Below are positions 16,330 through 62,772 of a stretch of 64,000 bases of DNA, one piece after another (positions within the stretch are counted from its first letter, which is position 1; each line of letters begins with the position of its first letter). Origin of the DNA: a virus; IMG/VR virus record IMGVR_UViG_3300045988_111426; one strand, given 5' to 3'. The translations under genes were made by a program, and so were the position numbers. Under the pieces are notes generated by a model. That model saw only the letters and a list, made by a program, of their open reading frames with translations, did not search any database and was not told the origin of the DNA.

Positions 16330-16785
16330 CTACTTTCCTATGTGTTGAGATTGATGATGATGGCTGATGTGGCTGATGTTGATATCGATCGATACGTCTT
16401 GCTTTATCTTCATCAAGAATTGTTCTATTCTCTTTTTTTCTTCTGCCTTATTACGTGTACCGAAGTTGTAATTCTTACCACGACCTTCGGGATATCTTTC
16501 ACGGATCTTGATGAGATTTGCTTCCATGACATCATCAATCGTGACACCAAGGAAATGACAAATGTTCATGAAGTAGAACAGAACATCACCGAGTTCGTCT
16601 ACGAGATCAACCTTCGAGATCTCCTTAGAATGGAACACTGCCTTCTTGACTATATCAGCAAATTCACCAGATTCTGACATAAGTGCCATTGTCATGTGAA
16701 TGAAGTCGAGAACCTTGTTGTTTGTAGGATTCTCGTTGAAGCAAGAAACGACAAATTGCTCGTATTCTTTTACTTTTTCATCCAT
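16330..16785 (-). CDS. mazG: MazG-like nucleoside triphosphate pyrophosphohydrolase
   Basis: 'MALMSESGEFADIVKK...LVDELGDVLFYFMNICHFLGVTIDDVMEANLIKIRERY' fits the all-alpha NTP-PPase pattern. The track start at 16800 is TTG; an ATG lies at 16785. His-rich tail. Confidence 0.75.
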   Translation of the reverse strand: MDEKVKEYEQFVVSCFNENPTNNKVLDFIHMTMALMSESGEFADIVKKAVFHSKEISKVDLVDELGDVLFYFMNICHFLGVTIDDVMEANLIKIRERYPEGRGKNYNFGTRNKAEEKKRIEQFLMKIKQDVSIDINISHISHHHQSQHIGK

Positions 16786-16832
16786 TTTTATTGTTATCAA
16801 TATGACTGATTTGTGGTATTCTTATATATGAC

Positions 16833-20958: not shown

Positions 20959-22380
20959 TTATTCTTCTACAGCGACAAAGTCGTCGGATTCACGACCAGT
21001 CCCCAGTACAGAAAGCACAACCTTCTTATCATCACCCACAAGCTTGTTGATGGTGTCGATTTCTCCGAACATATTCTTGGAGAGCCAATCTTCTACCTTT
21101 GTTGTGATCTTTTCACGTTCTCCGTCCATTTCGCCATCTACCCAGTTGACGAAGTTGATGACAATATGAGTTTTACCATTTGGAGAGAGATTGTAGAGAA
21201 TGCCGTCGTGCAGAAGGCTCTTATCGAACTCGAAGACTCTTCGGGGGAGCTTGGTAAGTGACGTGCATTTTACATCATCTGGAATCGTCTTCCCATAGTT
21301 CTTTTCGACATCTTCCCACGTGATTTCTCGCTGGTGACTTTCTTCGTTCCAGATTGGAGAATAACCAGTACCGCTGAATGATTCGATGACTTCGTATTCA
21401 AGATATGGGAACTCACGCATTTCGTAGAAGTTGATGAATTCCTTACGTGTGACGATAGAAACGTGATCATCTCCTTCGATGAAGTCGAACAGATGCTTAT
21501 GAGCGTAGTACTTGAGCGTCGATTCCGAGTTCTTGTGAAGTCGGACAACTGGCTTCCCACCAATAAGGCGATACTTCTTGTTGTTGATCTTGATCGGATA
21601 AGTTCTACCATTCAAGATAACGTCACCTGCGAAGAATGGAGGAAGATTCATATCATCCAAAGCTGCACTGATCGTCACGTTTCGACTTGTTGAGTTCTGC
21701 TTGTTATAGCCGAGACCATACGAAAGTGGGAAACCTTGACCAATTTGCAGAAGGACTGATCCTCCATTGATCATAAACGTCATAAGACGCTTTTCGACAT
21801 CACAGATGAACTGCTTGAGTTCTGGGACTTGGTAAGCATAAGTCACCGTCTTGTTTCGAACGACCTTCTTTGCACGAACTGCACCAGATCCAGAGCAAGT
21901 AGATCCGCCTGCGATTGTGCCGTCATGATCAGACGACGAGTAGTTACCATCGATATCGCAAAGACCCTTTTCATAGTCTTCATCGATCTTGGTGATGATC
22001 CCTGCCTTGGGGTGGATGAAGAGCTTATCGAGAGGAAGACCGCTCATCTTGATTTCCTCGAAGAGACGTTCAACGGAGAACGACGCACCGTGACCGATAG
22101 CAACGAACTCGAGCTTTTCGTGGAGGTAGGCAGATGAAGGGAGAACTTCAAACATCATCTTCTTGCCGTCATCGTAGACCCAATGCGATGCATTTGCAGA
22201 GTTCGTAGTACAGACTGCAAGACGCTTATCACCAGTGCCGAACGAGGTGTTCTTCACGATCAGAGATTCACATTTGCCCTTGCCAGATGAACCTGCAGAA
22301 TAACCATCCAACAAGAACGTGATCTTTCCCTTTTCGAACATGTGATCAAACATGCCTACTTGATGCTTCTTGGCTTTCAT
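20959..22380 (-). CDS. divergent adenylosuccinate-synthetase-family enzyme (PurA/PurZ-like)
   Basis: Colinear with PurA by eye. P-loop 'GSSGKGK' (PurA GDEGKGK), 'NSANASH' (GGHNAGH), 'GGSTCSGSGA' (GTTGRGIGP), 'LLQIGQGFPLSYG' (MFEGAQGTLLDIDHG). Carries a large insertion before the C-terminal third. Confidence 0.65.
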   Translation of the reverse strand: MKAKKHQVGMFDHMFEKGKITFLLDGYSAGSSGKGKCESLIVKNTSFGTGDKRLAVCTTNSANASHWVYDDGKKMMFEVLPSSAYLHEKLEFVAIGHGASFSVERLFEEIKMSGLPLDKLFIHPKAGIITKIDEDYEKGLCDIDGNYSSSDHDGTIAGGSTCSGSGAVRAKKVVRNKTVTYAYQVPELKQFICDVEKRLMTFMINGGSVLLQIGQGFPLSYGLGYNKQNSTSRNVTISAALDDMNLPPFFAGDVILNGRTYPIKINNKKYRLIGGKPVVRLHKNSESTLKYYAHKHLFDFIEGDDHVSIVTRKEFINFYEMREFPYLEYEVIESFSGTGYSPIWNEESHQREITWEDVEKNYGKTIPDDVKCTSLTKLPRRVFEFDKSLLHDGILYNLSPNGKTHIVINFVNWVDGEMDGEREKITTKVEDWLSKNMFGEIDTINKLVGDDKKVVLSVLGTGRESDDFVAVEE

Positions 22381-22576: not shown

Positions 22577-22840
22577 CTAAAGTTCTACAGACTTTGACAT
22601 CTTGAACTTACCGACCTTCTTTGCAGGTACTGTCATCTTTTCCTTAGTACCAGGCTTGAAGGCTTCACGCTCTGGGCGAACTCTGGATGAGTACGTACCG
22701 AAGCCAACGAAGGTCACTGGCTCATCCTTCTTAAGACTTTCGATGATAGTCTTGTGATAAGCACCGATGATGGCTTCTACCTGCGTCTTAGTTGCACCAG
22801 TCTGCTCTGCGAGAGCTGTGATGAATTCTTTCTTAGTCAT
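22577..22840 (-). CDS. hup: HU/IHF-family DNA-binding protein
   Basis: 'MTKKEFITALAEQTGATKTQVEAIIGAYHKTIIESLKKDEPVTFVGFGTY...PGTKEKMTVPAKKVGKFK' fits the HU pattern. Confidence 0.85.
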   Translation of the reverse strand: MTKKEFITALAEQTGATKTQVEAIIGAYHKTIIESLKKDEPVTFVGFGTYSSRVRPEREAFKPGTKEKMTVPAKKVGKFKMSKSVEL

Positions 22841-28040: not shown

Positions 28041-28910
28041 TTATGGAGCGTACATCAGAGGATGACGAGAATAGAAGTTGACATCTGCTATAATATCACC
28101 ACGTTTCAGAGAAAGGGACTTCTTTCCGATTAGTGTCATATAAACGATGAAATCATCATCAACAATGTCCCACCCTGCAATCATCAGTCCATTGTTCATA
28201 AACATAGACGGAACGACATCTACACTTACAAGCGTTCCCAAAGGTAACTCATAAACACGAAGATCAGTCCTTACAGCGATTCTATCATTCGCCACTATCT
28301 TCACTGTATCATCTCCAAGAATCGCAGGTGGATTTTTACCGACGTATTCAAGAACATCAACGAATCTGGCCACCAAGAGTTCTTCACTTTTGCGGTTCAT
28401 GACCACCACATCTCCCAAACGATCATAGACTTCGTGAACAATCGGTTGATAGTTCTTCTCATAGAAACCGATCTGATTTCGATGAACGAGTGTGAAAGCC
28501 GTCAAGAGATCATAAGGGAAGACTGTGTCGTATTCGTGACAGTCATCTGGGACTTTCGTGAGGTGGATTTGCGACACGTATCTTCTGAAGAGATTCCACA
28601 TTTCTGCACCACCAATCACGAACACATCCTTCTGACGATTTTCGGAAGATTCACAGAAAGCTTTGAGCATTTCCATCGATTTGAAAACGTGAACACCTTC
28701 GATAGAAATGTCGTCTCGTGATAGGACAATGTTTAGTCTTCCTTCAAGTGGCTTTCCGATCTCTTCATATGTCTTCCTGCCCATGATGACAATGTTTCCC
28801 ATCGTCATTTCACGGAACAGATTCATATCTTCTCGGATTCTGAACAGAAGTTTGCCGTCGTTTCCAACAGCGAAGTTCTTATCAACACTGGCTATGAACT
28901 TTACTTTCAT
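28041..28910 (-). CDS. dihydrofolate reductase fused to a dUTPase-like beta-barrel domain
   Basis: The N-terminal half carries 'GNDGKLLFRIREDMNLFREMTMGNIVIMGRKTYEEIGKPLEGRLNIVLSR' and 'VFVIGGAEMW' (DHFR). The C-terminal half carries 'AVRTDLRVYELPLGT..VVPSMFMNNGLMIAGWDIVDDDFIVYMTLIGKKSLSLKRGDIIADVNF' (dUTPase motifs 1-4 pattern, no motif 5). Confidence 0.7.
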   Translation of the reverse strand: MKVKFIASVDKNFAVGNDGKLLFRIREDMNLFREMTMGNIVIMGRKTYEEIGKPLEGRLNIVLSRDDISIEGVHVFKSMEMLKAFCESSENRQKDVFVIGGAEMWNLFRRYVSQIHLTKVPDDCHEYDTVFPYDLLTAFTLVHRNQIGFYEKNYQPIVHEVYDRLGDVVVMNRKSEELLVARFVDVLEYVGKNPPAILGDDTVKIVANDRIAVRTDLRVYELPLGTLVSVDVVPSMFMNNGLMIAGWDIVDDDFIVYMTLIGKKSLSLKRGDIIADVNFYSRHPLMYAP

Positions 28911-28926
28911 GATGATTTATTCTTCA

Positions 28927-29982
28927 TTAAAAGCCATCACAGCAACATTCCGACATGTCACCACCATCGTTGCCAATACAACGTTCGTCTTTTAGTGATC
29001 GACGACGATCTTCTTTGCTTTCGTAGTTGTCCCAACCATCGACTTTTTCACATGGGAATTCCTTATGTGCCACTTTCAAGAACTCGTGTTCACCTCTAAT
29101 AGCCAACACAGCAATCGTCTGATCTTTGTGTATAGTGACAGGTTTCGATCCCATGTTTACAAGACCAACACAGACAACACCATCAGTAATACTCGATGAT
29201 TCCACCGAGATTCCGTTATAGACAAAGTAGTGTAAGATTGTCTTGATATCGACATAAACGTTCTTGGGGATTCTGTAAATCTCGATATCGGTCTTCATGA
29301 AAACTCTGTCACCTTTGTGTAAAACTATGGAATCCCGATGATCAGACTTTCTTCTTACAGTTTCACCAAAGCCGTTGACGTGAACTCTTGGTTCTCGTGC
29401 ACAAACACCATAACAACCAAAACCATCGACACTTGCTGTACACATGAAGACGTTGTCTTTGAACTCGTAATCGGTGACTTTCACGAAGTCATTGAGATGG
29501 TGTTCCCAGACAACGTTCGAAGACCGACGAATATCGAGGATCATCTTCTGAGGGATGTCGGAGAGTTCGTATCTATCGTGAGATTCTGATCCACTCACTT
29601 CCACCATCTTGATTCTGTCGACATGACCTACAAAGCTTCTTGCGATGTGGATGTTGTCGACCATTACGTAAACATCACGATATATGTCAAACTTCGTACC
29701 GAGCATGTCGATGAAATCTCGTATAGATTCTGCACGAACAAACCCTTCACGATTGAAGTTCTTGTTCTGGGTGATGACAACATTTATGCGGTTTGGAAGC
29801 GGTGATATGAGAGTGGAACATGTGTCCTCATCAAAGACTATGATGTTTCCAGTGGTGATCTTTCCGATATAGTCTCGAAGATCCGTGTTGGAGGGTGAAG
29901 ATAGCAGTTTCTGGGCGTTGATTGTCCTCGCTTTGTCGTTGACAAATAGGATCATTTCGATTTCGGTCTTGTTCTTCTTCAT
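28927..29982 (-). CDS. degenerate DHFR-like::dUTPase-like fusion paralogue with Cys-rich tail
   Basis: 'GNIIVFDEDT..PNRINVVITQ' (decayed DHFR pattern), then 'GDRVFMKTDIEIYRIP...SSSITDGVVCVGLVNMGSKPVTIHKDQTIAVLAI'. Tail 'MSECCCDGF'. Confidence 0.5.
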   Translation of the reverse strand: MKKNKTEIEMILFVNDKARTINAQKLLSSPSNTDLRDYIGKITTGNIIVFDEDTCSTLISPLPNRINVVITQNKNFNREGFVRAESIRDFIDMLGTKFDIYRDVYVMVDNIHIARSFVGHVDRIKMVEVSGSESHDRYELSDIPQKMILDIRRSSNVVWEHHLNDFVKVTDYEFKDNVFMCTASVDGFGCYGVCAREPRVHVNGFGETVRRKSDHRDSIVLHKGDRVFMKTDIEIYRIPKNVYVDIKTILHYFVYNGISVESSSITDGVVCVGLVNMGSKPVTIHKDQTIAVLAIRGEHEFLKVAHKEFPCEKVDGWDNYESKEDRRRSLKDERCIGNDGGDMSECCCDGF

Positions 29983-30010
29983 CTTTGTTTGTGGTTGATT
30001 ATGATTGCGA

Positions 30011-30976
30011 TTATGAGTGTTTGATCAGTTTAGTTCCCCATTTGCTGGTTTCCATATTCTCTGAGAAGTCGTTATTACAACCTATGAGTTTGTAGTCTCC
30101 GATTATGTGAACATTACCAACCACTTTCTTATAGTCCAAAACTACACGATGTGGTGAATTGTTGACAAAAGAAAGGATAATGTCACCATCGGAGATTTTG
30201 CACGACTGCATAACAAAACCGAGAGCACGGAAACGAGTATTTTCCACAACACGGATATCAGTTTCGGACGGTATTCTGTACATCTTGAAATCTGTGACGA
30301 TCGAAAACGTGTCACCTCCTTCGATGATTGTCGACAGTCCATTCGAAAGTATTCTGTTTACAGGTTCACCTTCGGAATTCACATGTGAAAGAACGTCCCA
30401 ACAGTAAAGTTCACAACCTTTGTCTTTGGAGACATAACTGTTGCAAATGACAACATTGTCTGCGAATTCACGTTCTTGATGGATTATTCCGTTGGGGAAT
30501 TCTGAGTAGTTTGTCATCTTACACACTTTGTGGACATCTTCCAAGAGTGGTCTCGTCATTTCCTCGTTCCATTTCTCATCAGTGACGAGGAAGTGGATTT
30601 TGGAAACGTATTGAACAAGCGATGACCATGCGTCATATCCACCAATCACGAAGACCTTTTCATTTCTCCCACGAAGGAAATCACAAAGATGTTTGTATGA
30701 ACAGATGAACTTTGTATCTTCGGTGTCTTCATGTTCATAATCAAAGAGAACGATTGACGGAACTCTAAAGTTTGATCTTTCCATCATTTCGTAGTACTCT
30801 CCGTCCATCACGATTATTGCGCCTTCACGAGTGTCATTTATCAACTTTCTCAGTGATTCTCTATACTTCTCATCTGTGAACGGATTCGTATAATCGTTGA
30901 CACTCAAGGACTTATCGACATATGCGACGAATTCCACCTTCAGTTTTTTCCATATTGCTCCGAATTTTTTCTGCAA
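30011..30976 (-). CDS. degenerate DHFR-like::dUTPase-like fusion paralogue
   Basis: 'KVEFVAYVDKSLSV', 'VFVIGGYDAWSSL', then 'GDTFSIVTDFKMYRIP...CKISDGDIILSFVNNSPHRVVLDYKKVVGNVHI'. The track start at 30976 is TTG. Confidence 0.5.
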   Translation of the reverse strand: MQKKFGAIWKKLKVEFVAYVDKSLSVNDYTNPFTDEKYRESLRKLINDTREGAIIVMDGEYYEMMERSNFRVPSIVLFDYEHEDTEDTKFICSYKHLCDFLRGRNEKVFVIGGYDAWSSLVQYVSKIHFLVTDEKWNEEMTRPLLEDVHKVCKMTNYSEFPNGIIHQEREFADNVVICNSYVSKDKGCELYCWDVLSHVNSEGEPVNRILSNGLSTIIEGGDTFSIVTDFKMYRIPSETDIRVVENTRFRALGFVMQSCKISDGDIILSFVNNSPHRVVLDYKKVVGNVHIIGDYKLIGCNNDFSENMETSKWGTKLIKHS

Positions 30977-31011: not shown

Positions 31012-31797
31012 TTAAACACTCACATCCGCCTTGATCGTAGGATGATGAACGTAGTTCTTGATTACGATTTGATCGATGAGATTTGCGGAGATATTGTCAA
31101 TGTCGATATCTCCCACGATTTCTATCTCTGGGAGTTCGTATGGTTTTCGGGATAGTTGGAGCTTTACTTGATCCAAGTGATTCTTGTAGATGTGAAGATC
31201 TCCAAACGAATGGATAAATCGATGAGGTTTCTTGTCACAGATCTTTGCAACAATGTAAAGCAGAAGTGAGTATTGAGCAAGATTGAATGGAACACCCAAG
31301 AAGAGATCGGCAGATCTTTGATAAAGCTTTAATGAAAGCCTGTCACCTTCGACATAGAACTGGAAGAAACAATGACAAGGAGGAAGTGCCATTTCCGAGA
31401 GTTCTTGAGGATTCCAAGCCGAGACGATTATTCTTCGTGAATCTGGATTGTTCCGAATTTGGTCGATTGCTTCTCGAATCTGATCAACCCCTCCGAAATC
31501 TCTCCATTGCTTTCCATAGATCTTTCCAAGGTCTCCGTTTTCATCTGCCCATTCATCCCAGATCGTCACACCATTGTCTCGGAGGAACTTCACGTTTGTA
31601 TCACCACGGAGCATCCAAGCAAGTTCGAATATGACACTTCTCATATGGATTCTCTTCGTGGTGAGGATTGGGAATTTTTCACTTACGTCATATTCCACTT
31701 GATGACCAAACACAGAGATTGTTCCAGTTCCAGTTCTGTCCGTTCTTTCTGTCCCGTTTTCGAGAACGTACTTGAGCAAATCGAGATAAGTCTGCAT
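31012..31797 (-). CDS. thyA: thymidylate synthase
   Basis: 'DRTGTGT', '[14 protein letters not shown]', '[19 protein letters not shown]' (Asn retained), and canonical C-terminus '[11 protein letters not shown]'. Confidence 0.9.
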
Positions 31798-31907: not shown

Positions 31908-33311
31908 CTATCTACTTCTCTTTTTCTTATAGTCTTCGATGAGCTTTGTCACGTAGGATTCAGCGTCGAATTCTCCCGAAAGCATTGATAGAATCTGAGG
32001 TGAATAACCACTGACGAAGACGTTTCCATCTTTGCTAACAGTTGGTAGTGTGACATTGTCCACTGAGAGATTCCACCAGATCATCTTCACACCCTTCTGA
32101 TTGAGAGTATCAAGATGCGTCGCATTTCTATCATAGGAATCGTCGAACTGCATATCACTAAGAACAAGGACATATTCGGGCAGATCTTCCGTTATGTTGT
32201 TCAGATTTCGAAGAACTGCTTCGAAATTCGTGCAAGTACAGTCACCGAACGATTCGAGGATCGCCATATCACGAACATAGGAGAAATCCTCATCTTTTGT
32301 CAATTTCATGATCCGAGAATCGTCCGAGAAGACGATGAAGTGATTACGGAGATAATCAGAATGGTGTGAAACATAGTGACCAATTGAACGTGCCTTACCA
32401 ATTGAATCGAATCTGTCGAACATTGATCCAGAGCCGTCAATGATTGGGATGATCTTCCCAAAGTTCATAGATCCCAGAGCCTTGAAAGCTTCTGTATAGA
32501 ACGTGTCATGTTCCATCCCCTTCTCACTGGGATTTATCTTTCCGTCATATGCCGTGTAACGATAATCAAAGCCATTGAATGCAGTGTTTCGATATGACCT
32601 TAGTAAGTCGTATGGCGTGGAAACGGACTGATTCATCTTGGTTTTCCCAGATTTTAGTTCCTCGAGATACTTCTTGAAGTTTTCATCCTTGAAGAATTCC
32701 TTCTTATGTCGAAGCATAGAAAGTGAAGGAACATGTGAGTAATCATCTGGGAATTCTCCACGTGATCTCACAGATTCGACAGTCATAGGGGATGCGCACC
32801 ATCCACGATAGATTGTCTTCGAAATCTTCTGTCTTCGAAGTTCGTTTCTGATGATCTTGAACTTCTTGGATCTCTCACGAGGAAGCCACTTTTTCAGAAG
32901 TTCGTAATTACCACGGATAGAATCGTTGTCCATGGCTTCCTTGATGTACCCCACGACCTCCTTGGGGGTGTGAGTGTACAAGATATCATCAGCACGACCA
33001 ACCTCGATCACATCATCGATCGAAATGTTCTGAATTTTCAAGAGAACACGACCGATTTCTCTTTCACCAATCCCCATACGAGGATCTCTGATATACATTG
33101 AGAAGAAGCGGTTGAACTCACTCTTTTCAAGGAACTCGGGATAATCGACAATGATCAGTTTCTCTACTTCTGCAAGTCCCTTGTACTTTGCGATTTCACG
33201 GATCTTTTGAAGTCTGAACAAGAAATCGACATAAGGATTTCCGATGTATCTCTTATAGGCTCTGTCACCATTCGTCGTTCTCGTCTCGTTGAATGCATCG
33301 AAGATGTTCAT
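31908..33311 (-). CDS. DUF2828-like protein with vWA (MIDAS) domain
   Basis: 'TTNGDRAY..GNPYVDFLF' (as in DUF2828 'TENG...SGNPCLDFFF', recalled), MIDAS 'IIDGSGSM', and 'VLVLSDMQFDD'. Start trimmed to the ATG at 33311. Confidence 0.55.
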   Translation of the reverse strand: MNIFDAFNETRTTNGDRAYKRYIGNPYVDFLFRLQKIREIAKYKGLAEVEKLIIVDYPEFLEKSEFNRFFSMYIRDPRMGIGEREIGRVLLKIQNISIDDVIEVGRADDILYTHTPKEVVGYIKEAMDNDSIRGNYELLKKWLPRERSKKFKIIRNELRRQKISKTIYRGWCASPMTVESVRSRGEFPDDYSHVPSLSMLRHKKEFFKDENFKKYLEELKSGKTKMNQSVSTPYDLLRSYRNTAFNGFDYRYTAYDGKINPSEKGMEHDTFYTEAFKALGSMNFGKIIPIIDGSGSMFDRFDSIGKARSIGHYVSHHSDYLRNHFIVFSDDSRIMKLTKDEDFSYVRDMAILESFGDCTCTNFEAVLRNLNNITEDLPEYVLVLSDMQFDDSYDRNATHLDTLNQKGVKMIWWNLSVDNVTLPTVSKDGNVFVSGYSPQILSMLSGEFDAESYVTKLIEDYKKKRSR

Positions 33312-33385
33312 AATCGTTTGATTGAGATTGATCTTTATTTGTTGTTTGTGATTGTTTGTGATTGATTGCTTAGCGATTAATGTTT

Positions 33386-33416
33386 CGGTCATCTTATCTT
33401 TACGACAAGATGACCG
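33386..33416 (-). terminator. 10-bp hairpin inside the discarded N-terminal ORF extension
   Basis: cggtcatctt / aagatgaccg. Confidence 0.4.
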
Positions 33417-35851: not shown

Positions 35852-37054
35852 TTACCAAAGTGGATCGAAAGCGATCAATGAAACAGGCAATGCTTGTACA
35901 CCAATCGAAGTGATTATCTTGTTAAGTGGTGAAAGATAAAGCATTTCGAACTGCTTGGAATAATCGATTGGATAAAGGAACTCATAACAAGGGTCTCCGT
36001 TGACAAATGCGAAGACATCACTTCGGGGATCTGTTGAATAGTAGTATTGAATCTTCATCCCCGATCTGATCTGTTGATATTTGTGTTTATACTTCGACTT
36101 TGTAAGTTCGGCATTATAAACACTCGAAGCTCTGATCTGAATTGTTACCCCCTTGACGTATTCGAAGACACCATCTTTTGCAGTTATCACATATTTCTCA
36201 TAACCATTAACTCTCTGAGAGATTGCAACATCTTCCACGTTTGCACTTTCAAATTTTGATTTTTGCATTTTGACGTGGTCGATGAAATCTCGAAGATTCA
36301 GTTCTCGGTGTTGCAAGATATAGTGAACTGTCTCACGGAGAAGTTCTCGGACAAACTTTGGTGTCGATGACTTGTTAATATCGAGACCTTTGACTTCTAC
36401 GTTTTCAAGTGGCTTGAAATAAACGCCTTCTTCCCAAGAGATATTCTTGATGTACTTCTTCTTCGATGTCCACAAGACGTTGTGGCAGATCATCTCAAAA
36501 GCAAGCTTCATTGAACGTTGTCCATCAATCTTCTGCTGGAATCCGTTGAACTTGCGGATATAACCAACGAGCATATCTTTGACACAATCATTCAGATCGT
36601 TTTCACCAATATCAAAGACGAATTCTTCAAGAGTTCCCTTGTAATCGGTCTTGTCCATGATGTCCTTGTAACGGATAAACACGGAATCTGTGTCGGCATA
36701 GTTCACCGCATTGAAATCGATCGGATCACACTTTGTAATCCCCATCTTTGCATGCAGTTCCCGATGATTTGGGAATCTCTGTTGGAAATACCTATTGAAG
36801 AAGAGAATGGTGTAACGGATCACATGAGAAGATTGCTCAGACACGGATCTTGCAATTTCTCTATCGTAGAGGATAAATGAATGATAACCAAGAACACCAT
36901 AGATTGAGTTGAGAGCAACTTTCGAGACTTTGTTAATTGTTGACTGATAACTTGCTTCTCTCTCAAGTCTGGATATTTCCATCAGAATCTCCTCTTCTGT
37001 GACATTCTGTCCTTTCTTCAAGGATGAGTGGTTAAGTTCTATCTCAAGGATCAT
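35852..37054 (-). CDS. family-B DNA polymerase, C-terminal half (motifs B and C, KKKY, thumb)
   Basis: Motif B 'KVALNSIYGVLG', motif C 'YADTDSVFI', and 'TSKKKYIKN'. Begins with its own ATG. Confidence 0.85.
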   Translation of the reverse strand: MILEIELNHSSLKKGQNVTEEEILMEISRLEREASYQSTINKVSKVALNSIYGVLGYHSFILYDREIARSVSEQSSHVIRYTILFFNRYFQQRFPNHRELHAKMGITKCDPIDFNAVNYADTDSVFIRYKDIMDKTDYKGTLEEFVFDIGENDLNDCVKDMLVGYIRKFNGFQQKIDGQRSMKLAFEMICHNVLWTSKKKYIKNISWEEGVYFKPLENVEVKGLDINKSSTPKFVRELLRETVHYILQHRELNLRDFIDHVKMQKSKFESANVEDVAISQRVNGYEKYVITAKDGVFEYVKGVTIQIRASSVYNAELTKSKYKHKYQQIRSGMKIQYYYSTDPRSDVFAFVNGDPCYEFLYPIDYSKQFEMLYLSPLNKIITSIGVQALPVSLIAFDPLW

Positions 37055-37217
37055 TGGGGATCTTGTTGTAGAGTTGTTGGCTGACTATTGATTGATCAGT
37101 AGATGTTGATCAGTTGATGATTGTTGATGTCGGATGTCTATTCACATTTCCTATAATCAAGAGAGGTCATGGGTTATGTTCGGGAGGATTTTGGAGGTGA
37201 TCTCTTTTTAAAGTTTC

Positions 37218-37444
37218 GTACGTATACGCAGGAATTCCAACAGTTTTATATGCGTGTCACCTAACACGCTAGCGGTACCATTGGTAGAAACTGGAGATTT
37301 TTAATCAGAGAAATAAAGATATTTCTGCGCTCAATGTATGGTTTGTAGAAACCTATGCACTAGCGTGCATAGTTTGTTCTCCAAACCAGTTGTTAATGCT
37401 TCGCATTAACGTTAAAAGTAATTAAAAATAATCGCACGCATATA
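37218..37444. other. structured non-coding segment (candidate ncRNA or origin hairpins)
   Basis: Long-range 10-bp complementarity between 37247-37256 and 37435-37444 encloses local hairpins at 37340-37353, 37353-37372 (8 bp, loop tagc), 37392-37410 (8 bp) and 37309-37326. Confidence 0.3.
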
Positions 37445-37645
37445 CGAGTATACACCCACGAATACACACCCACGAGTTACACGAATAAGCATGCGGTTTG
37501 TGACAACTGAGCCGATAATCAGCCAAGAATCCTCCAAAGTCATAGGTAGTCTTCAAAGAATCAGTCATAGTCTTTCAATGATCCTTTAATCTTTGGTCTT
37601 AGTCTTTGATGATTTCCAACAGTCGTCATAATCTTTCAATGATCA

Positions 37646-37681
37646 GTCTTTGTCTTTGTCTTTGTCTTTGTCTTTGTCTTT
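37646..37681. repeat. (GTCTTT)6 hexanucleotide tandem repeat
   Basis: Six perfect consecutive GTCTTT units. Confidence 0.9.
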
Positions 37682-38271
37682 CCATAACCCTTCATAGTCT
37701 TTGACAATAGTCCACAGTCTTCCAATGATCATCATTATCCTTCAAAGATACTCTTCTGATTAAAGAGAGGTACTTTCCTTGCACTCTGATACACTTTCCG
37801 CTATTTCTACCCCACTGAATATCTTCGAGGACAAGGAAGATACCAAGAAGACAATCGAAGATAATCAGTCATAGTCTTCCAATAGTCCTTTGATGATTGC
37901 CTTTGTCTTTCAATGATTGTCCATAATCAGTCATAGTCTTCCAATGATCCTTTGACAATCATTCATTATTGTCATTGTCTATTCATAGTCTTTCAAGAGT
38001 ACTCTTCTGATTACAGAAAGGCACTTTCCTTGCATTCTGACCCATTTGACGCTATTTTCACCCCACTTGATCAGTTTGAATCAAAGAAAGACATAAAGAA
38101 GACAATCGTCGATAATCAATAGTCTTTCGATAATCAGCCTTTGTCTTTAATTGTCTTTCATAGTCTTTGATGATGATCATTGTCTCCCGACGAGAGTCCA
38201 TAATCCCCAAGAATATGTCTTCTGATTACAGGAAGGTACTTTCCTTGCACTCTGACCCATTTTCCGCTATT

Positions 38272-38300
38272 TTCATATTCTTGAATCACTTCGAGGACAA
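38272..38300 (-). promoter_or_regulatory. sigma70-like promoter inside an inverted-repeat cassette (TTGTCC-N17-TATGAA)
   Basis: The -35 lies in the right arm. Same geometry as 44123-44151 and 52757-52785. Confidence 0.35.
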
Positions 38301-38481
38301 GGAAAGTACCTTCCTTTAAAGCATATCAATTGGATAACACGTCTTCGGATAATGATGAATAGTGAACGATTGTTTCTCATCTATCCATTTTTGTTGATCT
38401 TCCGATAAAAACAACCATTTCTCACCCATTATAAGACGTATGAAGTAGATTTGTTGATGTCATAAGAATACAAAGAAGACA

Positions 38482-39039
38482 ATGAAGTCATTAGAACAGT
38501 TTCGCAATATGGTCTTGAATCACGATATCTTCATATTGATCGAAGGTAGACAAGCATTGATCAAAAATGTCGATCTTGATTTATACTCTCGACGTGGTGA
38601 TTTAGTGGTTTCGTATCAAGACATAATAATCAACGACGAAGGTATAAAGACAGAGAACCACGAGGAAACTGTTCTATTCATTCGTGATGGTCTCTTTTGT
38701 GAAGACTACTACATCGTGGAATCCGATCCAGTGTTCTATAAGCAGTTTTCTATAAAGACACGCAACAAGATGAAGATTCTCGATATGCGAGATATTGCCG
38801 TTGTTCACGATCTCTCTTCAAAATCTCCAGAGGAAATAATGAACGTTTATAAGATGATTCGTGAAGAGATTCTTCTTTACACGTTCTTCAATCCTTCTAT
38901 CTTCCATAAAAATCCTTACCCATCTTTAGAATATAAGATGCCAAATGAAAAGATTATCGAAAAGTCAGATGAATCATTGAGAAATCTGGATGGTCTGATC
39001 GATTCTGCAAGATCAATTCATTGGTTCTTAAGTTTCTAA
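38482..39039 (+). CDS. hypothetical protein
   Basis: 185-aa first gene of the plus-strand island. Confidence 0.55.
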   Translation: MKSLEQFRNMVLNHDIFILIEGRQALIKNVDLDLYSRRGDLVVSYQDIIINDEGIKTENHEETVLFIRDGLFCEDYYIVESDPVFYKQFSIKTRNKMKILDMRDIAVVHDLSSKSPEEIMNVYKMIREEILLYTFFNPSIFHKNPYPSLEYKMPNEKIIEKSDESLRNLDGLIDSARSIHWFLSF

Positions 39040-39055
39040 CAGAGAGGAAAAAGTC

Positions 39056-39586
39056 ATGAAGAAGATAGCTTTCGTTGGTAAATCTGCAGTTGGTAAGAAT
39101 CACTTCTTAAACATCTTTACCGCTCTTGGATACAAACCAGCAATAGGTCATACTACAAGAGCACCAAGAGAGGGGGAACAAGAAGGTAAAGATTATCACT
39201 TTGTCTCTAAGGAAGAGTTTGCGGAGATGATCTTGAAGGACGAGTTCATCCAGTTCATGCAGTTCCAAGGAGAATATTACGGAACTACTTTCACAGAATT
39301 CAGAAATTGTGACTTCTTCATCACTTCACCAACTGGTCTTGAGTACATTCCCGACAATCTTCGCTCAAATATAACAATAGCTGAACTCATCTGTGAAAAG
39401 ACAGTCACAATCCTCAGAAGACAGATTCGTGATGCATCCCAAGATACCACTTCGAGAGATGAGAATGACGACAAGCTCTTTGAAAACTTTGATCAGAAAA
39501 TGAAAGATCTCGGTTATAATCACGTGAAGATCGACACTGCAACAGCAATCGAAAAGTTCTACGCTCACAGCTTTGATGTATGCTAA
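39056..39586 (+). CDS. gmk: guanylate-kinase-like nucleoside monophosphate kinase
   Basis: P-loop 'GKSAVGKN', 'GHTTRAPREGEQEGKDYHFVSKEEF' and 'GEYYGT', matching Gmk 'SHTTR.PR.GE..G..Y.FV' and 'YYGT'. Confidence 0.75.
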   Translation: MKKIAFVGKSAVGKNHFLNIFTALGYKPAIGHTTRAPREGEQEGKDYHFVSKEEFAEMILKDEFIQFMQFQGEYYGTTFTEFRNCDFFITSPTGLEYIPDNLRSNITIAELICEKTVTILRRQIRDASQDTTSRDENDDKLFENFDQKMKDLGYNHVKIDTATAIEKFYAHSFDVC

Positions 39587-40284
39587 TACTTGATAACAGT
39601 AAAGACTACTACGACTACATCCAAGGCGTTTATGGCGTGGATAGAAAGATTGTGTTTGATAGGCATGCTTTCAACTTACAGCACGAAGATGTTCGTTTTT
39701 CTTGTCACGACAATCTTGCTTACTTTCTTGTAGAAGTTGCAACAACGTGGTATATGCTCAGAGTTGATGTTGATCCCGAGAGAGATTCTTTAAGGGGGGA
39801 GCACCCTTTCCAAAGATTGAGTTTTTATCACAAAGACATACGTTCTCTTTCTCTCATCTGTACAAAGGAAATCGATGAAAAGGAGAAACTTTCCGATAGT
39901 GTTTCGTTCTTACTCAACATTGACAACGCCCATACCGTTTTCTCGATGTTCATGTCTTATATGATCACCCACGGTAGAAAATACGGCTTTGGGGATGAGC
40001 GTATAGACTACGACGACATGTTCAGATCTCTGTTCGAAATGTCAGCGTCTGAGATAGTACCGAAGGTGGCCAGATTTGGATTTGAAAGCTACTTCCACTG
40101 TAAAAATCCACTCTTGAAGTGCATCAACTTCGGTGGGATTGTTCCTCCAGAGGAGATGTTCATCAAGATCCAAAACTTCCTCTCGGCACAAATCAAAGAT
40201 GGTGTCGAAGTGAAGATGACAGATGAACAGAAGATTGTCGGGTATGGATTCGACAAGAAGACATCTTTCAGGAAGAGAAAATAA
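39580..40284 (+). CDS. hypothetical protein
   Basis: 234-aa ORF overlapping the gmk-like stop by 7 nt. Basic tail 'GFDKKTSFRKRK'. Confidence 0.55.
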   Translation: MLILDNSKDYYDYIQGVYGVDRKIVFDRHAFNLQHEDVRFSCHDNLAYFLVEVATTWYMLRVDVDPERDSLRGEHPFQRLSFYHKDIRSLSLICTKEIDEKEKLSDSVSFLLNIDNAHTVFSMFMSYMITHGRKYGFGDERIDYDDMFRSLFEMSASEIVPKVARFGFESYFHCKNPLLKCINFGGIVPPEEMFIKIQNFLSAQIKDGVEVKMTDEQKIVGYGFDKKTSFRKRK

Positions 40285-43985: not shown

Positions 43986-44004
43986 GGGAGAAAAAGAAAA
44001 TTGT

Positions 44005-44115
44005 AAAAAGAAGAAAAGGTGGCTATCGGAGATGATCTCTCTGATAGCCACCTTCTTTATAAACATACTCTTCTGATTAAAGAGAGGTACTTTCCTTGCA
44101 CTCTGACAGATTCTC
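44005..44115 (-). ncRNA. candidate ~105-nt small RNA (promoter 44123-44151 to terminator 44017-44054)
   Basis: A sigma70-like promoter followed about 100 nt later, on the minus strand, by stem AAGGTGGCTATC/GATAGCCACCTT plus TTCTTCTTTTT. No ORF of 60 aa or more. Confidence 0.25.
44017..44054. terminator. bidirectional hairpin terminator
   Basis: aaggtggctatc / gatagccacctt. A T-run follows on the minus strand and a weaker one on the plus strand, after 43569..43985. Confidence 0.65.
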
Positions 44116-44122
44116 TCGTGTT

Positions 44123-44151
44123 TTCATATTCTTGAATAGTTTCGAATGCAA
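44123..44151 (-). promoter_or_regulatory. sigma70-like promoter in an inverted-repeat cassette (TTGCAT-N17-TATGAA)
   Basis: Read on the minus strand. Confidence 0.35.
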
Positions 44152-44221
44152 GGGAAGTGTGTTCGAAAGCTTAAATCAAAGAGAGGTACTTTCCTTGCGC
44201 TCGAAGATGTTCCATCGTGTT

Positions 44222-44249
44222 TTCATAATCTTGAAAGAAAAGAGCGCAA
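44222..44249 (-). promoter_or_regulatory. sigma70-like promoter in an inverted-repeat cassette (TTGCGC-N16-TATGAA)
   Basis: Read on the minus strand; tandem to the previous cassette. Confidence 0.3.
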
Positions 44250-44262
44250 GGGAAATACACTC

Positions 44263-44310
44263 GAGAGCCTTGTATGAGTAGTTTTTGTTACTAGTCCACA
44301 CAAGGCTCTC
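44263..44310 (-). terminator. 11-bp hairpin after 44342..45937
   Basis: gagagccttgt / acaaggctctc with a 26-nt loop. Confidence 0.45.
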
Positions 44311-44341
44311 TCTTTATATTGATGTTAAAAATCGTGGGTCT

Positions 44342-57136: not shown

Positions 57137-58179
57137 ATGTCTTGAGAATCTATAAACTGATCAAACGTTCTATTGTTCTGTGTCTTCGTTAGCTCTCCTA
57201 TAACGTACAACTCGAGTGCATCATAGTAAGCGTCGTTATAACTCTTATATGAGAGTTCGACATATCTGCGATTGATGCCGATATTCTCGGAGATCTTCTC
57301 GGAATCAGCATAATCTGGGGACTTCTGCACCTCGTCGATTATGTGCTTTGGGAGATCTGCATCTTCGAAAACATCTTCAACGGTCATCTCACCATTTACC
57401 ACCTTCTCTTCATAATACTTCTCGAAGACTTTCGATGCACGGAGGTCAGTGAACGATACTTCAGATTTTCCCTTGAGATATTTGTAAACGGAAGGGATGT
57501 TGTCGGATTTATCCCCAGACAAGACCTTTACGAACAGTGCCTTCTCGGGGATGATCTTCTCGGATCTCTGTTCAATGATCGTTCTGTTACTATCTTCGAT
57601 CACGTTTTCAGAAATCCCTAAGAAGTCATCAAGCGTGGAGATTTCCTTCTTCTTTGTCCTCTGATCAATGTAGTGCATCATCTTCGACGAATCCATGTTG
57701 AACATTGCAATGAAGCTCGTTCCATTGAACTTCACGAGTTGTTTCATATCGGAATCCGCTGTACAGATGATCACTGATTCATCAGACTTGTAGATCAGAT
57801 TCGATGAAACATAGATGAGATCATCACCTTCTGCATGAGGATAGGAGAGAACACAATAGCCGTTATCTACGAGGAATCGTTTGAACTCTGAGATGAACTT
57901 GGAGAATCCTTGACGATCGAATCTTGGTGTTGATGTCTTTCGATTTGCCTTGTAATCATCGCCACGATCAAGCTCGTATCGCCACGACTTCTCCGTAGAA
58001 TCAAAGCAGAATACAAAGTTTGTCACCCTGCTGTACTTCTTGATGACGAAGTTTATCGATTGTAAGACAGCTTGACGGAGATCATCTCTGTCCTCTTGTG
58101 TAGACAAGAAAATCTCTGATGGGGATATTGCGAACGCTGTCCTATTCGCAATATAGTTCATATCAAAAACTATCTGCAT
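57127..58179 (-). CDS. rnh: RNase H / 5'-3' flap endonuclease (T4 rnh-like)
   Basis: 'YKANRK', 'EGDDLI', 'ICTADSDMKQLV' and 'LSGDKSDNIPSV'. Confidence 0.75.
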   Translation of the reverse strand: MQIVFDMNYIANRTAFAISPSEIFLSTQEDRDDLRQAVLQSINFVIKKYSRVTNFVFCFDSTEKSWRYELDRGDDYKANRKTSTPRFDRQGFSKFISEFKRFLVDNGYCVLSYPHAEGDDLIYVSSNLIYKSDESVIICTADSDMKQLVKFNGTSFIAMFNMDSSKMMHYIDQRTKKKEISTLDDFLGISENVIEDSNRTIIEQRSEKIIPEKALFVKVLSGDKSDNIPSVYKYLKGKSEVSFTDLRASKVFEKYYEEKVVNGEMTVEDVFEDADLPKHIIDEVQKSPDYADSEKISENIGINRRYVELSYKSYNDAYYDALELYVIGELTKTQNNRTFDQFIDSQDIWQ

Positions 58180-61900: not shown

Positions 61901-61914
61901 ATCTCGTGTTATAT

Positions 61915-61966: not shown

Positions 61967-61981
61967 ATCTTCCTTCAGTTG

Positions 61982-62738: not shown

Positions 62739-62772
62739 TGTGCTTTCGAAGGTATTTTTATATTTTTGATGT

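What the first reader, a model, noticed from the sequence alone, without database searches (positions are those of the whole stretch)
37055..38481. 1.4-kb non-coding strand-switch region: iteron field, (GTCTTT)6 tract and three repeat modules (candidate origin or master regulatory region)
- **Location:** this is the longest ORF-free stretch in the window. It separates minus-strand genes (PolB C-half) from the plus-strand island (38482-40284).
- **Iterons:** it holds at least 12 copies of an ~18-bp unit, CATAGTCTT(T/C)CAATGATC (minus strand GATCATTG(A/G)AAGACTATG).
- **Tandem repeat:** it has a perfect (GTCTTT)6 tract at 37646-37681.
- **Modules:** there are three successive modules, starting near 37512, 37860 and 38110. 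Each is built of GATAATCA, an iteron cluster, TCTTCTGATTA..GG(T/C)ACTTTCCTTGCA(C/T)TCTGA and a partner arm.
- **Shared core:** the core TATGAC also occurs in the TGTCAT arrays at 61744-62641.
- **Hypotheses:** (a) a replication origin with initiator-binding iterons next to the polymerase gene, (b) a multi-site operator for an early/late switch, or (c) if transcribed from the 38272-38300 promoter, a long leader or protein-sponge RNA with repeated AAGAC/GGAAGAC sites.
Basis: partly seen in the sequence, partly recalled or inferred. Interest (0 to 1): 0.7.

Follow-up and report, generated by a model that had tools for sequence, protein, structure and literature searches.

The report
Paired non-coding repeat hubs in phage
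This 1.4-kb gene-free stretch of an uncultured T4-like phage is one of two related DNA hubs per genome, each built from a hairpin-rich core, short repeats spaced one DNA turn apart and palindromic modules. It most likely acts on DNA, as a replication origin or enhancer, but its function is untested.

Summary
37055-38481 is ORF-free, (GTCTTT)6 sits at 37646-37681, and three about 120-nt modules are present.

The anatomy differs from the description in four ways:
- **Repeat unit:** it is a one-orientation motif, WTWGTCTT, of about 10.4 bp. There are 16 copies here and 11-19 in relatives. It is phased with the DNA helix. The hexamer tract is a non-conserved slippage product.
- **Modules:** they belong to a dispersed family of imperfect palindromes, with at least 9 copies in the window.
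- **Core:** Its stems are kept by compensatory, strictly Watson-Crick changes.
- **Second hub:** every ~150-kb relative with both sites on one contig has a second, inverted hub 67-82 kb away. There, repeats and modules point away from the core on both sides.

No Rfam family matches, there are no DnaA boxes and there is no GC-skew switch.

Best reading (about 0.4): a cis-acting DNA hub, either a lytic origin or an origin/enhancer. It resembles T4 oriE iterons and baculovirus homologous regions, next to a PolB-C promoter.

Rivals are a pure transcription-control region, a non-coding RNA locus, or selfish repeats. Function is untested.

The parts
37055..37138 (-). Variable 5' leader of the PolB C-half gene, with TTGATCAGTnGATG repeated twice
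   Evidence: (repeat D9) and 19: poorly conserved and full of indels among relatives; similar in style to the leader of the methylase gene (AATCAATAGT, CAACAA).
37139..37172 (-). Conserved 34-nt box GATGTCTATTCACATTTCCTATAATCAAGAGAGG. On the minus strand it reads TTATAGGAAATGTG. Candidate promoter for PolB-C.
   Evidence: Nearly invariant in all type-A loci. The minus-strand motif recurs 75-91 nt upstream of the ATGs of the methylase-like gene (27654) and the PurZ-like gene (22471). A TTCCTATAACCAAGAGG version is kept in the relative with 77% PolB identity.
37201..37217 (.). AT-rich box TTTTTAAAGTTTC that bounds the core
   Evidence: The only match in the 64-kb window. There is 1 copy here, 2 in the L007 clade, and 4 upstream plus 1 downstream of the core in the second hub.
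37218..37511 (.). Conserved core. Hairpins lie at 37252-37269, 37309-37326, 37339-37388 (three-tier) and 37392-37410. Rare perfect palindromes are CGTATACG at 37221, GGAATTCC at 37231, GGTACC at 37274, GTATAC at 37448 and GCATGC at 37489.
   Evidence: This is the most conserved part of the region. Of 23 pairs, 98.4% are paired, 5 changed on both sides and none on one side. The 37309-37326 hairpin is replaced by unrelated hairpins in hub B and in L043. Fold z-scores are -2.7 (+) and -4.2 (-). The palindromes are rare in the window. There is no Rfam match.
37512..37744 (+). Repeat field A: about 10.4-bp WTWGTCTT units, including the non-conserved (GTCTTT)6 at 37646-37681
   Evidence: The + strand is 62% pyrimidine. 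Among relatives the field is hypervariable, with indels of whole units.
37745..37863 (+). Module M1, an imperfect palindrome: left arm GGTACTTTCCTTG, centre TATTTCTACCCCA, degenerate right arm, then AAGAAGACAAT
   Evidence: nhmmer E = 1.6e-29. Kept in all relatives.
37864..37994 (+). Repeat field B
   Evidence: In L011 this field carries (GTCTTT)7.
37995..38114 (+). Module M2: the right arm has decayed to an A-rich leader-like stretch that ends in AAGAAGACAATC
   Evidence: nhmmer E = 1.1e-24. Repeat D6.
38115..38213 (+). Repeat field C
38214..38328 (+). Module M3, the most complete palindrome: 27-nt arms at 38226-38252 and 38293-38319, 89% complementary, with centre TATTTTCATATTCTTGA
   Evidence: inverted repeat I1; E = 2.1e-29.
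38329..38426 (+). Degenerate fourth repeat field
   Evidence: clear TTGTCTT units in the L007 and L012 clade, eroded in the window.
38427..38455 (+). Conserved proximal box CATTATAAGACGTATGAAGTAGATTTG. TAGATTTG (38446-38453) fits the Bacteroidetes -7 consensus TAnnTTTG. Candidate promoter of gene 38482.
   Evidence: Invariant in all relatives. It is the only + strand TAnnTTTG in the region. No -33 TTTG lies at the right distance.
38468..38483 (+). ATACAAAGAAGACAATG: a copy of the repeat core in the opposite orientation (AAGACAAT) that overlaps the start codon. The same string ends M1 and M2.
   Evidence: (repeat D6).
38482..39039 (+). First island gene, 185 aa, with no known family. It is found only in genomes that carry the hub.
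   Evidence: The AlphaFold model is too poor to use, with pLDDT 52.

Best explanation
The region is one of two paralogous cis-acting DNA hubs in a ~150-kb T4-like phage, whose distant relatives infect Bacteroidota.

**Layout of each hub**
- A conserved core of about 300 bp made of short hairpin-forming inverted repeats and rare perfect palindromes, bounded by AT-rich TTTTTTAAAGTTT boxes.
- Arrays of a ~10.4-bp motif (WTWGTCTT) that point away from the core and lie on one face of the helix.
- Palindromic modules of about 100 bp interspersed in the arrays.

**Proposed mechanism (inferred, not shown)**
- A phage DNA-binding protein coats the phased repeats. Candidates are the hub-linked 185-aa protein or the phage HU-like protein.
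- The inverted GGTACTTTCCTTG arms of the modules are also bound.
- Together with transcription leaving the hub, this helps to open or extrude the core, so that replication starts there.
- The hub would therefore be a lytic origin that doubles as an enhancer or operator for the flanking PolB-C and island promoters.

In the window only the right half of the symmetric layout is present. The left side is the PolB-C promoter and leader.
For: **Shown**
- **Two hubs:** each of the four contigs of 149-152 kb that carry both matches has two hubs, inverted relative to each other and 66.5-69 kb / 82.5 kb apart.
- **Hub B layout:** it has the same parts. Modules and repeats are in minus orientation to the left of the core and plus orientation to the right. 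Purine/pyrimidine asymmetry flips accordingly.
- **Helical phasing:** repeat spacing peaks at 10-11, 20-21, 30-32, 41, 50-53 and 60-62 bp. The best period is 10.5, 10.1 and 10.2 bp in three loci, with 0-13 of 500 controls as strong.
- **Repeat number:** it is kept at 11-19 although positions, indels and the hexamer tract are not conserved.
- **Core stems:** they are kept by changes on both sides with no one-sided changes. One hairpin is replaced by unrelated hairpins. Only 3-4% of pairs are G-U on either strand. That is a strand-symmetric constraint.
- **More distant relative:** a relative with 77% PolB-C identity and 46% gp38482 identity keeps a hairpin-dense homologue of the core with different stems, z = -6.5.
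- **Replisome:** it is T4-like, with split gp43, a gp32-like protein, an RNase H-like protein and an HU-like protein.
- **Outward transcription:** a + strand-only terminator closes hub B before a convergent gene. This implies that transcription leaves the hub.
- **Gene linkage:** gene 38482 occurs only next to hubs. Its start carries a copy of the repeat in the opposite orientation.

**From the literature**
- Baculovirus homologous regions are dispersed tandem units with imperfect palindromes that act as origins and enhancers (PMC4535591).
Against: - There is no GC-skew inflection at 37-38 kb. Cumulative skew falls monotonically across the window.
- Genes on both sides of each hub run the same way, so neither hub is a global divergence point.
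- There are no DnaA boxes, GATC is not enriched, and AT content is only moderate at 50-74%.
- No initiator, partition or sigma-like protein was recognised among the window genes scanned against Pfam or PHROGs.
- Phages with 55% PolB-C identity have no non-coding region at this position.
- Modules also occur singly outside the hubs, at 20 kb, 27.7 kb, 44 kb (two copies), 52.7 kb and 62.7 kb. They cannot be origin-specific.
- L043 shows no significant phasing.
- The phasing could simply reflect tandem duplication of a 10-11-nt unit.
Confidence: 0.4

Rival explanations
1. The hub is a pure transcription-control region. The modules are composite promoter/terminator cassettes. The phased repeats are operator or enhancer sites, or curved DNA, that set the timing of PolB-C and of the three-gene island. 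Replication does not start here.
For: - The region lies between divergent genes.
- A promoter-like box shared with two other nucleotide-metabolism genes sits 89 nt upstream of PolB-C.
- A conserved TAnnTTTG box sits 28 nt upstream of gene 38482.
- In the modules, the distance from the left arm (CCTTG) to TATTTTCA is fixed at 20 nt. This equals the Bacteroidetes -33/-7 spacing (the consensus is from my own knowledge).
- A half-module fills the 79-nt gap directly upstream of the ATG at 19973.
- M1 and M2 end in the same leader string as the real start codon.
- Terminators specific to the + strand follow + oriented modules in hub B.
- R1 parC-type arrays of 11-bp repeats flanking a promoter are a known precedent (own knowledge).
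Against: - Hub B has about 1.4 kb of repeats and three modules facing only a terminator and the 3' end of a convergent gene, so there is nothing to regulate.
- The two modules at 44 kb lie between convergent genes. Those at 27.7 kb and 52.7 kb point antisense to their neighbours.
- There is no sigma-70 consensus and no full Bacteroidetes consensus.
- This reading gives the conserved hairpin core no role.
Confidence: 0.28
2. The hub is a non-coding RNA locus. The core is a structured RNA present in two paralogous copies. Alternatively, outward transcripts carrying GUCUU repeats act as a protein sponge or a long leader.
For: - The hairpins covary.
- The core folds better than shuffles on both strands.
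- A + strand terminator bounds hub B with no ORF in between.
- Outward transcripts from either side of hub B would carry the same WUWGUCUU repeats.
- An RNA-repair gene set lies nearby: RtcB, and a protein that PHROGs labels 'RNA-binding protein'.
Against: - There is no Rfam hit, even at E up to 10.
- All helix variation is Watson-Crick to Watson-Crick with no G-U intermediates. G-U is 3-4% on both strands, which is unlike typical structured RNAs.
- The more stable strand differs between relatives: minus in the window, plus in L046.
- A 10.4-bp periodicity has no meaning for RNA.
- The perfect 6-10-bp palindromes suggest duplex DNA sites.
Confidence: 0.14
3. The hub is largely selfish or neutral repeat DNA. 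REPIN- or MITE-like palindromes and slippage-prone short repeats accumulated at a rearrangement scar where the guanylate-kinase island was inverted. The two hubs matter mainly as inverted repeats that recombine.
For: - Modules are dispersed in extragenic DNA as inverted doublets, mostly just downstream of gene ends.
- Gene conversion among copies is evident.
- The repeat fields are hypervariable and hold microsatellites, (GTCTTT)n and (GAAGATT)n.
- In a more distant relative the guanylate kinase lies downstream of PolB-C on the same strand, with no hub.
- Contig L013 joins the hub-B core to gene 38482, as recombination between inverted hubs would.
- Assemblies often break inside the hubs.
Against: - The core is more conserved than the surrounding intergenic DNA, and its stems are kept by compensatory changes.
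- Repeat number, orientation and phasing persist despite turnover.
- The module 13-mer and centre are nearly invariant over 83 distinct copies.
- The hub persists in a relative with only 46% identity in the adjacent protein.
- No transposase was seen in the window.
Confidence: 0.13
4. The hub is a centromere-like or packaging-recognition site, that is, arrays bound by a ParR/TubR-like protein or by the small terminase.
For: Arrays of about 10-11-bp direct repeats on one helix face, split into clusters, resemble parC/tubC centromeres and pac-site boxes (own knowledge).
Against: - No ParM, ParA or TubZ-like protein, and no small terminase, was found near either hub.
- The terminase is T4-type headful, which needs no unique pac site.
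- Contigs start at arbitrary positions rather than consistently at a hub.
Confidence: 0.05

Closest known systems
T4 replication origins, especially oriE (PMC3016281)
   Same: - A T4-like replisome.
- Several candidate origins per genome rather than one.
- A cluster of short, regularly spaced direct repeats of unknown binding partner.
- Dependence of T4 origins on nearby promoters and transcripts, which matches the evidence for transcription leaving the hub.
   Different: - T4 oriE repeats are 12 nt and few. Here there are 16-26 units of about 10.4 bp per flank.
- The palindromic modules and the hairpin-rich conserved core have no T4 counterpart.
- There is no sequence similarity.
- Origin activity has not been tested here.
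Baculovirus homologous regions (hrs) (PMC4535591)
   Same: - Repeated units of about 60-100 bp, each with an imperfect palindrome.
- The units occur singly or in tandem at several intergenic loci of a large dsDNA virus genome.
- hrs act as both origins and enhancers, which is the dual role proposed here.
   Different: - The virus realm and host are different, and there is no homology.
- Here the palindrome arms are 60 nt apart around an asymmetric conserved centre.
- Here the modules are embedded in phased 10-bp repeat arrays around a unique core.
- No IE-1-like binding protein is known.
Iteron-type origins of plasmids and lambdoid phages
   Same: - Direct repeats in one orientation at helical phase, next to an AT-rich element.
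- An adjacent gene whose start region carries a copy of the repeat in the opposite orientation, as in Rep autoregulation.
   Different: - The unit is about 10 bp, not 17-22 bp.
- There are dozens of copies spread over about 0.9-1.4 kb.
- There are no DnaA boxes.
- The adjacent 185-aa protein has no recognisable Rep, O or winged-helix family.
PeSL promoter/terminator cassettes of T4-like phages (PMC4122927)
   Same: They are a dispersed, conserved intergenic motif that combines a stem-loop with a promoter-like spacing, and they are sites of recombination and gene shuffling.
   Different: - A PeSL is a stem-loop followed by a sigma-70 -35/-10, a Shine-Dalgarno and a start codon directly upstream of a gene.
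- Here the two arms flank the centre and no sigma-70 consensus is present.
- Many copies are not followed by a gene.
ParR/parC-type centromere-operators (plasmid R1; own knowledge)
   Same: Clusters of about 11-bp direct repeats on one DNA face that flank a promoter-bearing centre.
   Different: No partition NTPase or ribbon-helix-helix gene was found, the phage looks lytic, and the arrays are much longer.

Membership tests
Iteron-type replication origin | Three or more direct repeats in one orientation, spaced in phase with the DNA helix | tested here: met
   There are 16 WTWGTCTT copies, all on the + strand. The period is 10.1-10.5 bp in 3 of 4 loci. The unit is shorter than classical 17-22-bp iterons.
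Iteron-type replication origin | An adjacent AT-rich DNA unwinding element | tested here: inconclusive
   TTTTTAAAGTTT boxes bound the core, and the stretch at 37405-37455 is 74% A+T. The rest of the hub is only 50-70% A+T.
Iteron-type replication origin | A cognate initiator gene (Rep, O or DnaA-like), or host DnaA boxes | tested here: not met
   There are no DnaA boxes. The adjacent genes have no Rep-like family. The gp38482 model is unusable, with pLDDT 52.
Iteron-type replication origin | Replication initiates at the site | not testable with these tools
   This needs marker-frequency, 2D-gel or nascent-strand mapping. GC skew shows no switch, but skew is a weak guide in T4-like phages.
T4-type multiple origins | More than one origin locus per genome, each tied to a promoter and its transcript | tested here: inconclusive
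   There are two hubs per genome. A + strand terminator implies outward transcription. No promoter is proven.
Baculovirus-type homologous regions | Repeated units with an imperfect palindrome at several dispersed intergenic loci | tested here: met
   There are 9 or more modules in the window at 6 loci, as singlets, a doublet and a triplet, plus 5 in hub B.
Baculovirus-type homologous regions | Bound by a viral transactivator, with enhancer and origin activity | not testable with these tools
   This needs binding and reporter or replication assays.
PeSL cassettes of T4-like phages | A stem-loop directly upstream of a sigma-70-like -35/-10, a Shine-Dalgarno and the start codon of a gene | tested here: not met
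   There is no sigma-70 match in the module centres. The arms flank the centre, and 5 or more copies face no gene.
Known structured RNA family (Rfam 15) | A match to a covariance model | tested here: not met
   There were no hits at gathering thresholds over the whole window. Only chance-level miRNA and snoRNA hits appeared at E up to 10.
Structured non-coding RNA (generic) | Covarying helices with the usual share of G-U pairs and a defined strand | tested here: inconclusive
   Covariation is present. However, no change is one-sided, G-U is 3-4% on both strands, and the preferred strand differs between relatives.
CRISPR-repeat mimic (solitary repeat units / RNA anti-CRISPR) | The repeat is identical to a CRISPR repeat array in host genomes | tested here: not met
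   The degenerate 22-nt module-arm pattern has one hit in 185,579 species genomes, and that hit lies inside a coding sequence.
REPIN/MITE-like mobile palindromes | Inverted repeat doublets dispersed in extragenic DNA, plus a cognate transposase (RAYT or other) | tested here: inconclusive
   The dispersion criterion is met. No transposase was seen among about 45 window genes scanned, but the rest of the genome was not examined.
Small protein gene inside each module | An open frame under purifying selection (third-codon-position excess of change) | tested here: not met
   A 16-codon frame starts with ATG or GTG in 68 of 81 copies. Entropy is equal at codon positions 1, 2 and 3, at 0.98, 1.00 and 0.92. 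Another frame is equally free of stops.

The most novel reading that the evidence does not exclude
This phage lineage carries a 'homologous-region' system so far known only from large eukaryotic DNA viruses.
- A family of about 100-bp palindromic modules is bound by a phage protein and dispersed over the genome.
- The modules are concentrated in two inverted hubs.
- The hubs act as paired origins/enhancers.
- Because the hubs are inverted repeats, they may also flip the ~67-kb segment between them into genome isomers. Contig L013 would be one recombinant junction.
Probability: 0.15. Interest if true: 0.75.

Novelty: new variant of a known kind. Interest (0 to 1): 0.55.

Why it matters
Replication origins and long-range regulatory DNA are essentially unmapped in uncultured large phages, including those related to phages of Bacteroidota. 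This locus gives a concrete, conserved and testable candidate.

- **Architecture:** there are two paralogous hubs with a defined layout of core, phased repeats and palindromic modules.
- **Candidate protein:** one lineage-specific gene is always adjacent to hub A.
- **If the hubs are origins/enhancers:** they would extend the T4 picture of several origins, and they would show a phage counterpart of baculovirus hrs.
- **If the core is an RNA:** it would be a new structured RNA class.
- **Practical point:** these hubs break short-read assemblies and can create chimeric contigs. This matters when curating viral metagenome catalogues.

Tried and rejected
- **DNA similarity of the region to 50,697 phage records:** no match.
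- **Rfam:** nothing at gathering thresholds and only chance-level hits at E up to 10.
- **tRNA and tmRNA search:** none.
- **Sigma-70 promoter scan:** no more hits than in shuffles.
- **Canonical Bacteroidetes TTTG-N19-21-TAnnTTTG scan:** 3 hits in 64 kb, none upstream of genes in this region.
- **Idea that the region is an insertion splitting PolB:** rejected. The N-half is 24 kb away at 11282-12778.
- **Idea that the modules encode a 16-aa peptide:** rejected. The frame is often open, but there is no codon periodicity and another frame is equally open.
- **Idea that the module arms mimic a host CRISPR or REP repeat:** rejected. There was a single chance hit in 185,579 genomes.
- **Long-range pairing CGTATACGC/GCGTATACG, first read as an RNA helix with G-U support for the + strand:** withdrawn. 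CGTATACG is itself a palindrome, and its partner lies on the other side of the core in hub B.
- **Strand assignment by folding energy:** contradictory between relatives.
- **Structure prediction of gp38482:** pLDDT 52, so no fold search was run.
- **Ro60 test of the nearby 'RNA-binding protein' by PDB sequence search:** no hit.
- **GATC and DnaA-box enrichment:** none.
- **Helical phasing of the TGTCAT arrays:** none.
Full report
**Context**

- The window is part of a ~150-kb myovirus-type phage. It encodes a tail sheath, portal, baseplate wedge, GroEL, ribonucleotide reductase and thymidylate synthase.
- It also encodes a gp32-like protein, an RNase H-like protein, RtcB and an HU-like protein.
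- The nearest cultured relatives are very distant, at 23-33% protein identity. They are phages of Flavobacterium, Chryseobacterium and Tenacibaculum, Sphingomonas phage PAU and the Prevotella Lak phages.
- Genes lack Shine-Dalgarno sequences and have A-rich leaders.
- PolB is split. The N-half is at 11282-12778 and the C-half at 35852-37054, both on the minus strand.
- Almost all genes in the window are on the minus strand. The 'strand switch' concerns only three + genes at 38482-40284: one of unknown function, a guanylate kinase and another of unknown function.

**Check of the observation**

- The 1427-nt gap, the (GTCTTT)6 tract and the three repeat modules are present as described.
- GTCTT occurs 22 times against 4.1 expected, always on the + strand.
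- The 18-mer 'iteron' is over-defined. Seven copies match with 3 or fewer mismatches.
- Six IMG/VR contigs with 98-100% PolB-C identity carry the region. The intergenic DNA is only 75-85% identical and full of indels.
- Across those relatives the WTWGTCTT motif is kept at 11-19 copies. CAATGATC has 0-4 copies.
- The hexamer tract is absent in four relatives and displaced in the fifth. It is a slippage product of the core motif, not a conserved feature.

1. *The core.*
   - The best-conserved part is 37139-37511.
   - Its left end is a 34-nt box. Its minus-strand motif, TTATAGGAAATGTG, recurs 75-91 nt upstream of the ATGs of the methylase-like and PurZ-like genes. I read it as the PolB-C promoter.
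   - The rest is a chain of short perfect hairpins plus rare 6-10-bp palindromes. It holds the only GGTACC in 64 kb, 2 of 6 GTATAC and 1 of 2 GGAATTCC.
   - It begins with an AT-rich box, TTTTTAAAGTTTC, that is unique in the window.

2. *A second hub.*
   - A pattern taken from the core matches twice on each of the four contigs of 149-152 kb that carry both sites.
   - The second copy (hub B) is inverted relative to hub A. It lies 66.5-69 kb away one way round and about 82.5 kb the other.
   - Hub B is about 2.5 kb of non-coding DNA. From left to right it holds:
     - a (GAAGATT)n tract;
     - two modules in minus orientation with AAGACWAT repeats;
     - four AT-rich boxes;
     - the core;
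     - one more AT-rich box;
     - then 18-26 GTCTT repeats and three + modules.
   - An ordinary + strand terminator closes it, just before the 3' end of a convergent gene.
   - Repeat polarity and purine/pyrimidine bias flip across the core.
   - Relative to the local gene direction, both cores have the same orientation.

3. *The modules are a dispersed family.*
   - The arm AGGTACTTTCCTTG has 14 matches with 2 or fewer mismatches, against 0.35 expected.
   - An HMM finds 9 good copies in the window: 20055, 27695, the three in this region, 44062, 44171, 52696 and 62757. It finds 83 distinct copies in all held loci.
   - Each copy has inverted GGTACTTTCCTTG arms around an asymmetric, conserved centre, yGCTATTTTCATAwTCTTGA.
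   - The 13-mer and the centre are nearly invariant. The sequence between them drifts and is exchanged among copies.

**Core structure**

- Hub A, hub B and an intermediate type (L043) differ by compensatory changes.
- On 14 distinct sequences and 23 pairs, 98.4% of cells pair. Five pairs changed on both sides and none on one side. Slid controls pair at only 31-42%.
- The hairpin at 37309-37326 (AGAAATA/TATTTCT) is replaced by AACATG/CATGTT in hub B and by ATGAA/TTCAT in L043.
- A relative with 77% PolB-C and 46% gp38482 identity keeps a homologous, hairpin-dense core with different stems, z = -6.5.
- The stems are therefore under selection.
- They are Watson-Crick only. G-U is 3-4% of predicted pairs on either strand.
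- The more stable strand differs between relatives.
- No Rfam family matches.
- This strand-symmetric pattern fits hairpins or cruciforms in DNA, or use of both strands, better than a classical RNA. It does not exclude an RNA.

**Repeat arrays**

- Distances between GTCTT sites cluster at 10-11, 20-21, 30-32, 41, 50-53 and 60-62 bp.
- The best period is 10.5 bp in the window, 10.1 bp in L012 and 10.2 bp in hub B. Between 0 and 13 of 500 controls are as strong. L043 shows no significant period.
- One-turn phasing, a single orientation and the polarity flip across the core are properties of duplex DNA. They point to protein arrays on one helix face or to curvature, not to RNA.
- A copy of the repeat core in the opposite orientation, AAGACAAT, overlaps the start codon of gene 38482. 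The same string ends M1 and M2.

**What the modules are remains open**

*For a promoter reading:*
- The spacing from CCTTG to TATTTTCA is fixed at 20 nt.
- A half-module lies directly upstream of the ATG at 19973.
- M1 and M2 have leader-like tails.
- A + terminator lies downstream of the + modules in hub B.

*Against a promoter reading:*
- The copies at 44 kb lie between convergent genes. Those at 27.7 kb and 52.7 kb point antisense.
- No sigma-70 or full Bacteroidetes consensus is present.

*Other points:*
- Nearly all copies lie just downstream of a gene end. This also fits an RNA processing or stabilising hairpin. They lack a U-tract, however, and in many copies pairing is limited to the 13-18-nt arms.
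- They do not encode a peptide under selection.
- They do not copy any bacterial repeat.

**Interpretation**

- I rank a DNA-level hub first, at about 0.4. It would be a lytic origin that doubles as an enhancer or operator.
- The model runs as follows:
  - Proteins sit on the phased repeats and module arms.
  - Transcription leaves the hub.
  - The AT-box-bounded, hairpin-rich core opens.
- T4 provides the nearest precedent. It has several origins, promoter dependence, and oriE with evenly spaced 12-nt repeats of unknown role (PMC3016281).
- Baculovirus hrs provide the nearest architectural analogue. They are dispersed tandem units with imperfect palindromes that serve as origins and enhancers (PMC4535591).
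- All functional steps are inferred.
- Against the model:
  - There is no skew switch.
  - There are no DnaA boxes.
  - There is no recognisable initiator.
  - The flanking genes are co-oriented.
  - The region is absent at this position in relatives with 55% PolB-C identity.
- The rivals are:
  - a pure transcription-control region (0.28);
  - an ncRNA locus (0.14);
  - selfish or neutral repeats at a rearrangement scar (0.13);
  - a centromere or packaging site (0.05).

**Verdict**

- The finding is real and more structured than described, but its function is unproven.
- It is not a member of any tested family. It is not a classical iteron origin, because the initiator and DnaA features are not met. 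It is not a PeSL, an Rfam RNA or a CRISPR-repeat mimic.
- It works most like an origin/enhancer hub.
- I rate it a new variant of a known kind, with interest 0.55.

Noticed in passing
window 11282-12778 (-) and 35852-37054 (-): The family B DNA polymerase is split into N- and C-terminal halves encoded 24 kb apart on the same strand. The C-half lies upstream of the N-half in the direction of transcription, so the two must be made as separate polypeptides.
   Followed up: partly
window 20959-22380, 16330-16800, 28041-30976, 31012-31797: A gene set suggests modified DNA bases, possibly a 2-aminoadenine (Z) genome. It comprises a PurZ-like adenylosuccinate-synthetase homologue (phrog_1211), a MazG-type pyrophosphohydrolase, three tandem DHFR-like paralogues and a thymidylate synthase.
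   Followed up: no
window 22577-22840 (-): The phage encodes an HU/IHF-family DNA-binding protein (PF00216, E = 2e-25). It is a candidate binder of the repeat arrays, by analogy with SPO1 TF1.
   Followed up: no
window 188, 3513, 6299, 17461, 48493, 52311 (all minus strand): The motif TTTAAATAACGAAA recurs 20-40 nt upstream of structural genes (portal, sheath and others), always in the gene orientation. It is probably the late promoter. There are 6 matches against 1.06 expected.
   Followed up: partly
window 61744-61900 and 62578-62641: Arrays of TGTCAT(AT) lie upstream of two small minus-strand genes. One array abuts module 62636-62757. They are not helically phased, so they are a different kind of array from the GTCTT fields.
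   Followed up: partly
all modules, e.g. window 38282-38232 (-): On the strand opposite to the standard orientation, most modules carry a 16-codon frame, MK(I/T)xxxxxE(C/F/R)KEST(F/S)L*. It starts with ATG or GTG in 68 of 81 copies. There is no codon-position signal, so it is probably a by-product of the nucleotide motif. Translation as a leader cannot be excluded.
   Followed up: yes
L013 1-1800 (IMGVR_UViG_3300006245_000049): This contig joins the left side, core and first about 450 nt of the right side of hub B to module M3 and gene 38482 of hub A. That junction is what recombination between the two inverted hubs would produce, as a genome inversion isomer. A short-read assembly chimera would look the same.
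   Followed up: partly
L039 2050-2125 and 2140-2195: The left edge of hub B carries an almost perfect palindrome with about 35-nt arms that include C9/G9 runs. It is followed by a (GAAGATT)n microsatellite, which is also the end of contig L013.
   Followed up: no
window 31908-33392 (-) and 58179-59375 (-): A DUF2828/DUF7788 protein that PHROGs labels 'RNA-binding protein' and an RtcB RNA ligase suggest an RNA-repair module. A PDB sequence search with the former found nothing.
   Followed up: partly
contig ends: L002/L010, L015/L016, L046/L047, L031, L026: Several metagenome contigs end inside hub A or hub B, often exactly at the GGTACTTTCC arm. The hubs are systematic assembly breakpoints.
   Followed up: partly
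window 43986-44341: The gap between convergent genes holds two tandem modules bracketed by two ordinary hairpins. By eye, the first looks like a bidirectional terminator and the second like a + strand terminator. The consensus scan did not call either one.
   Followed up: partly
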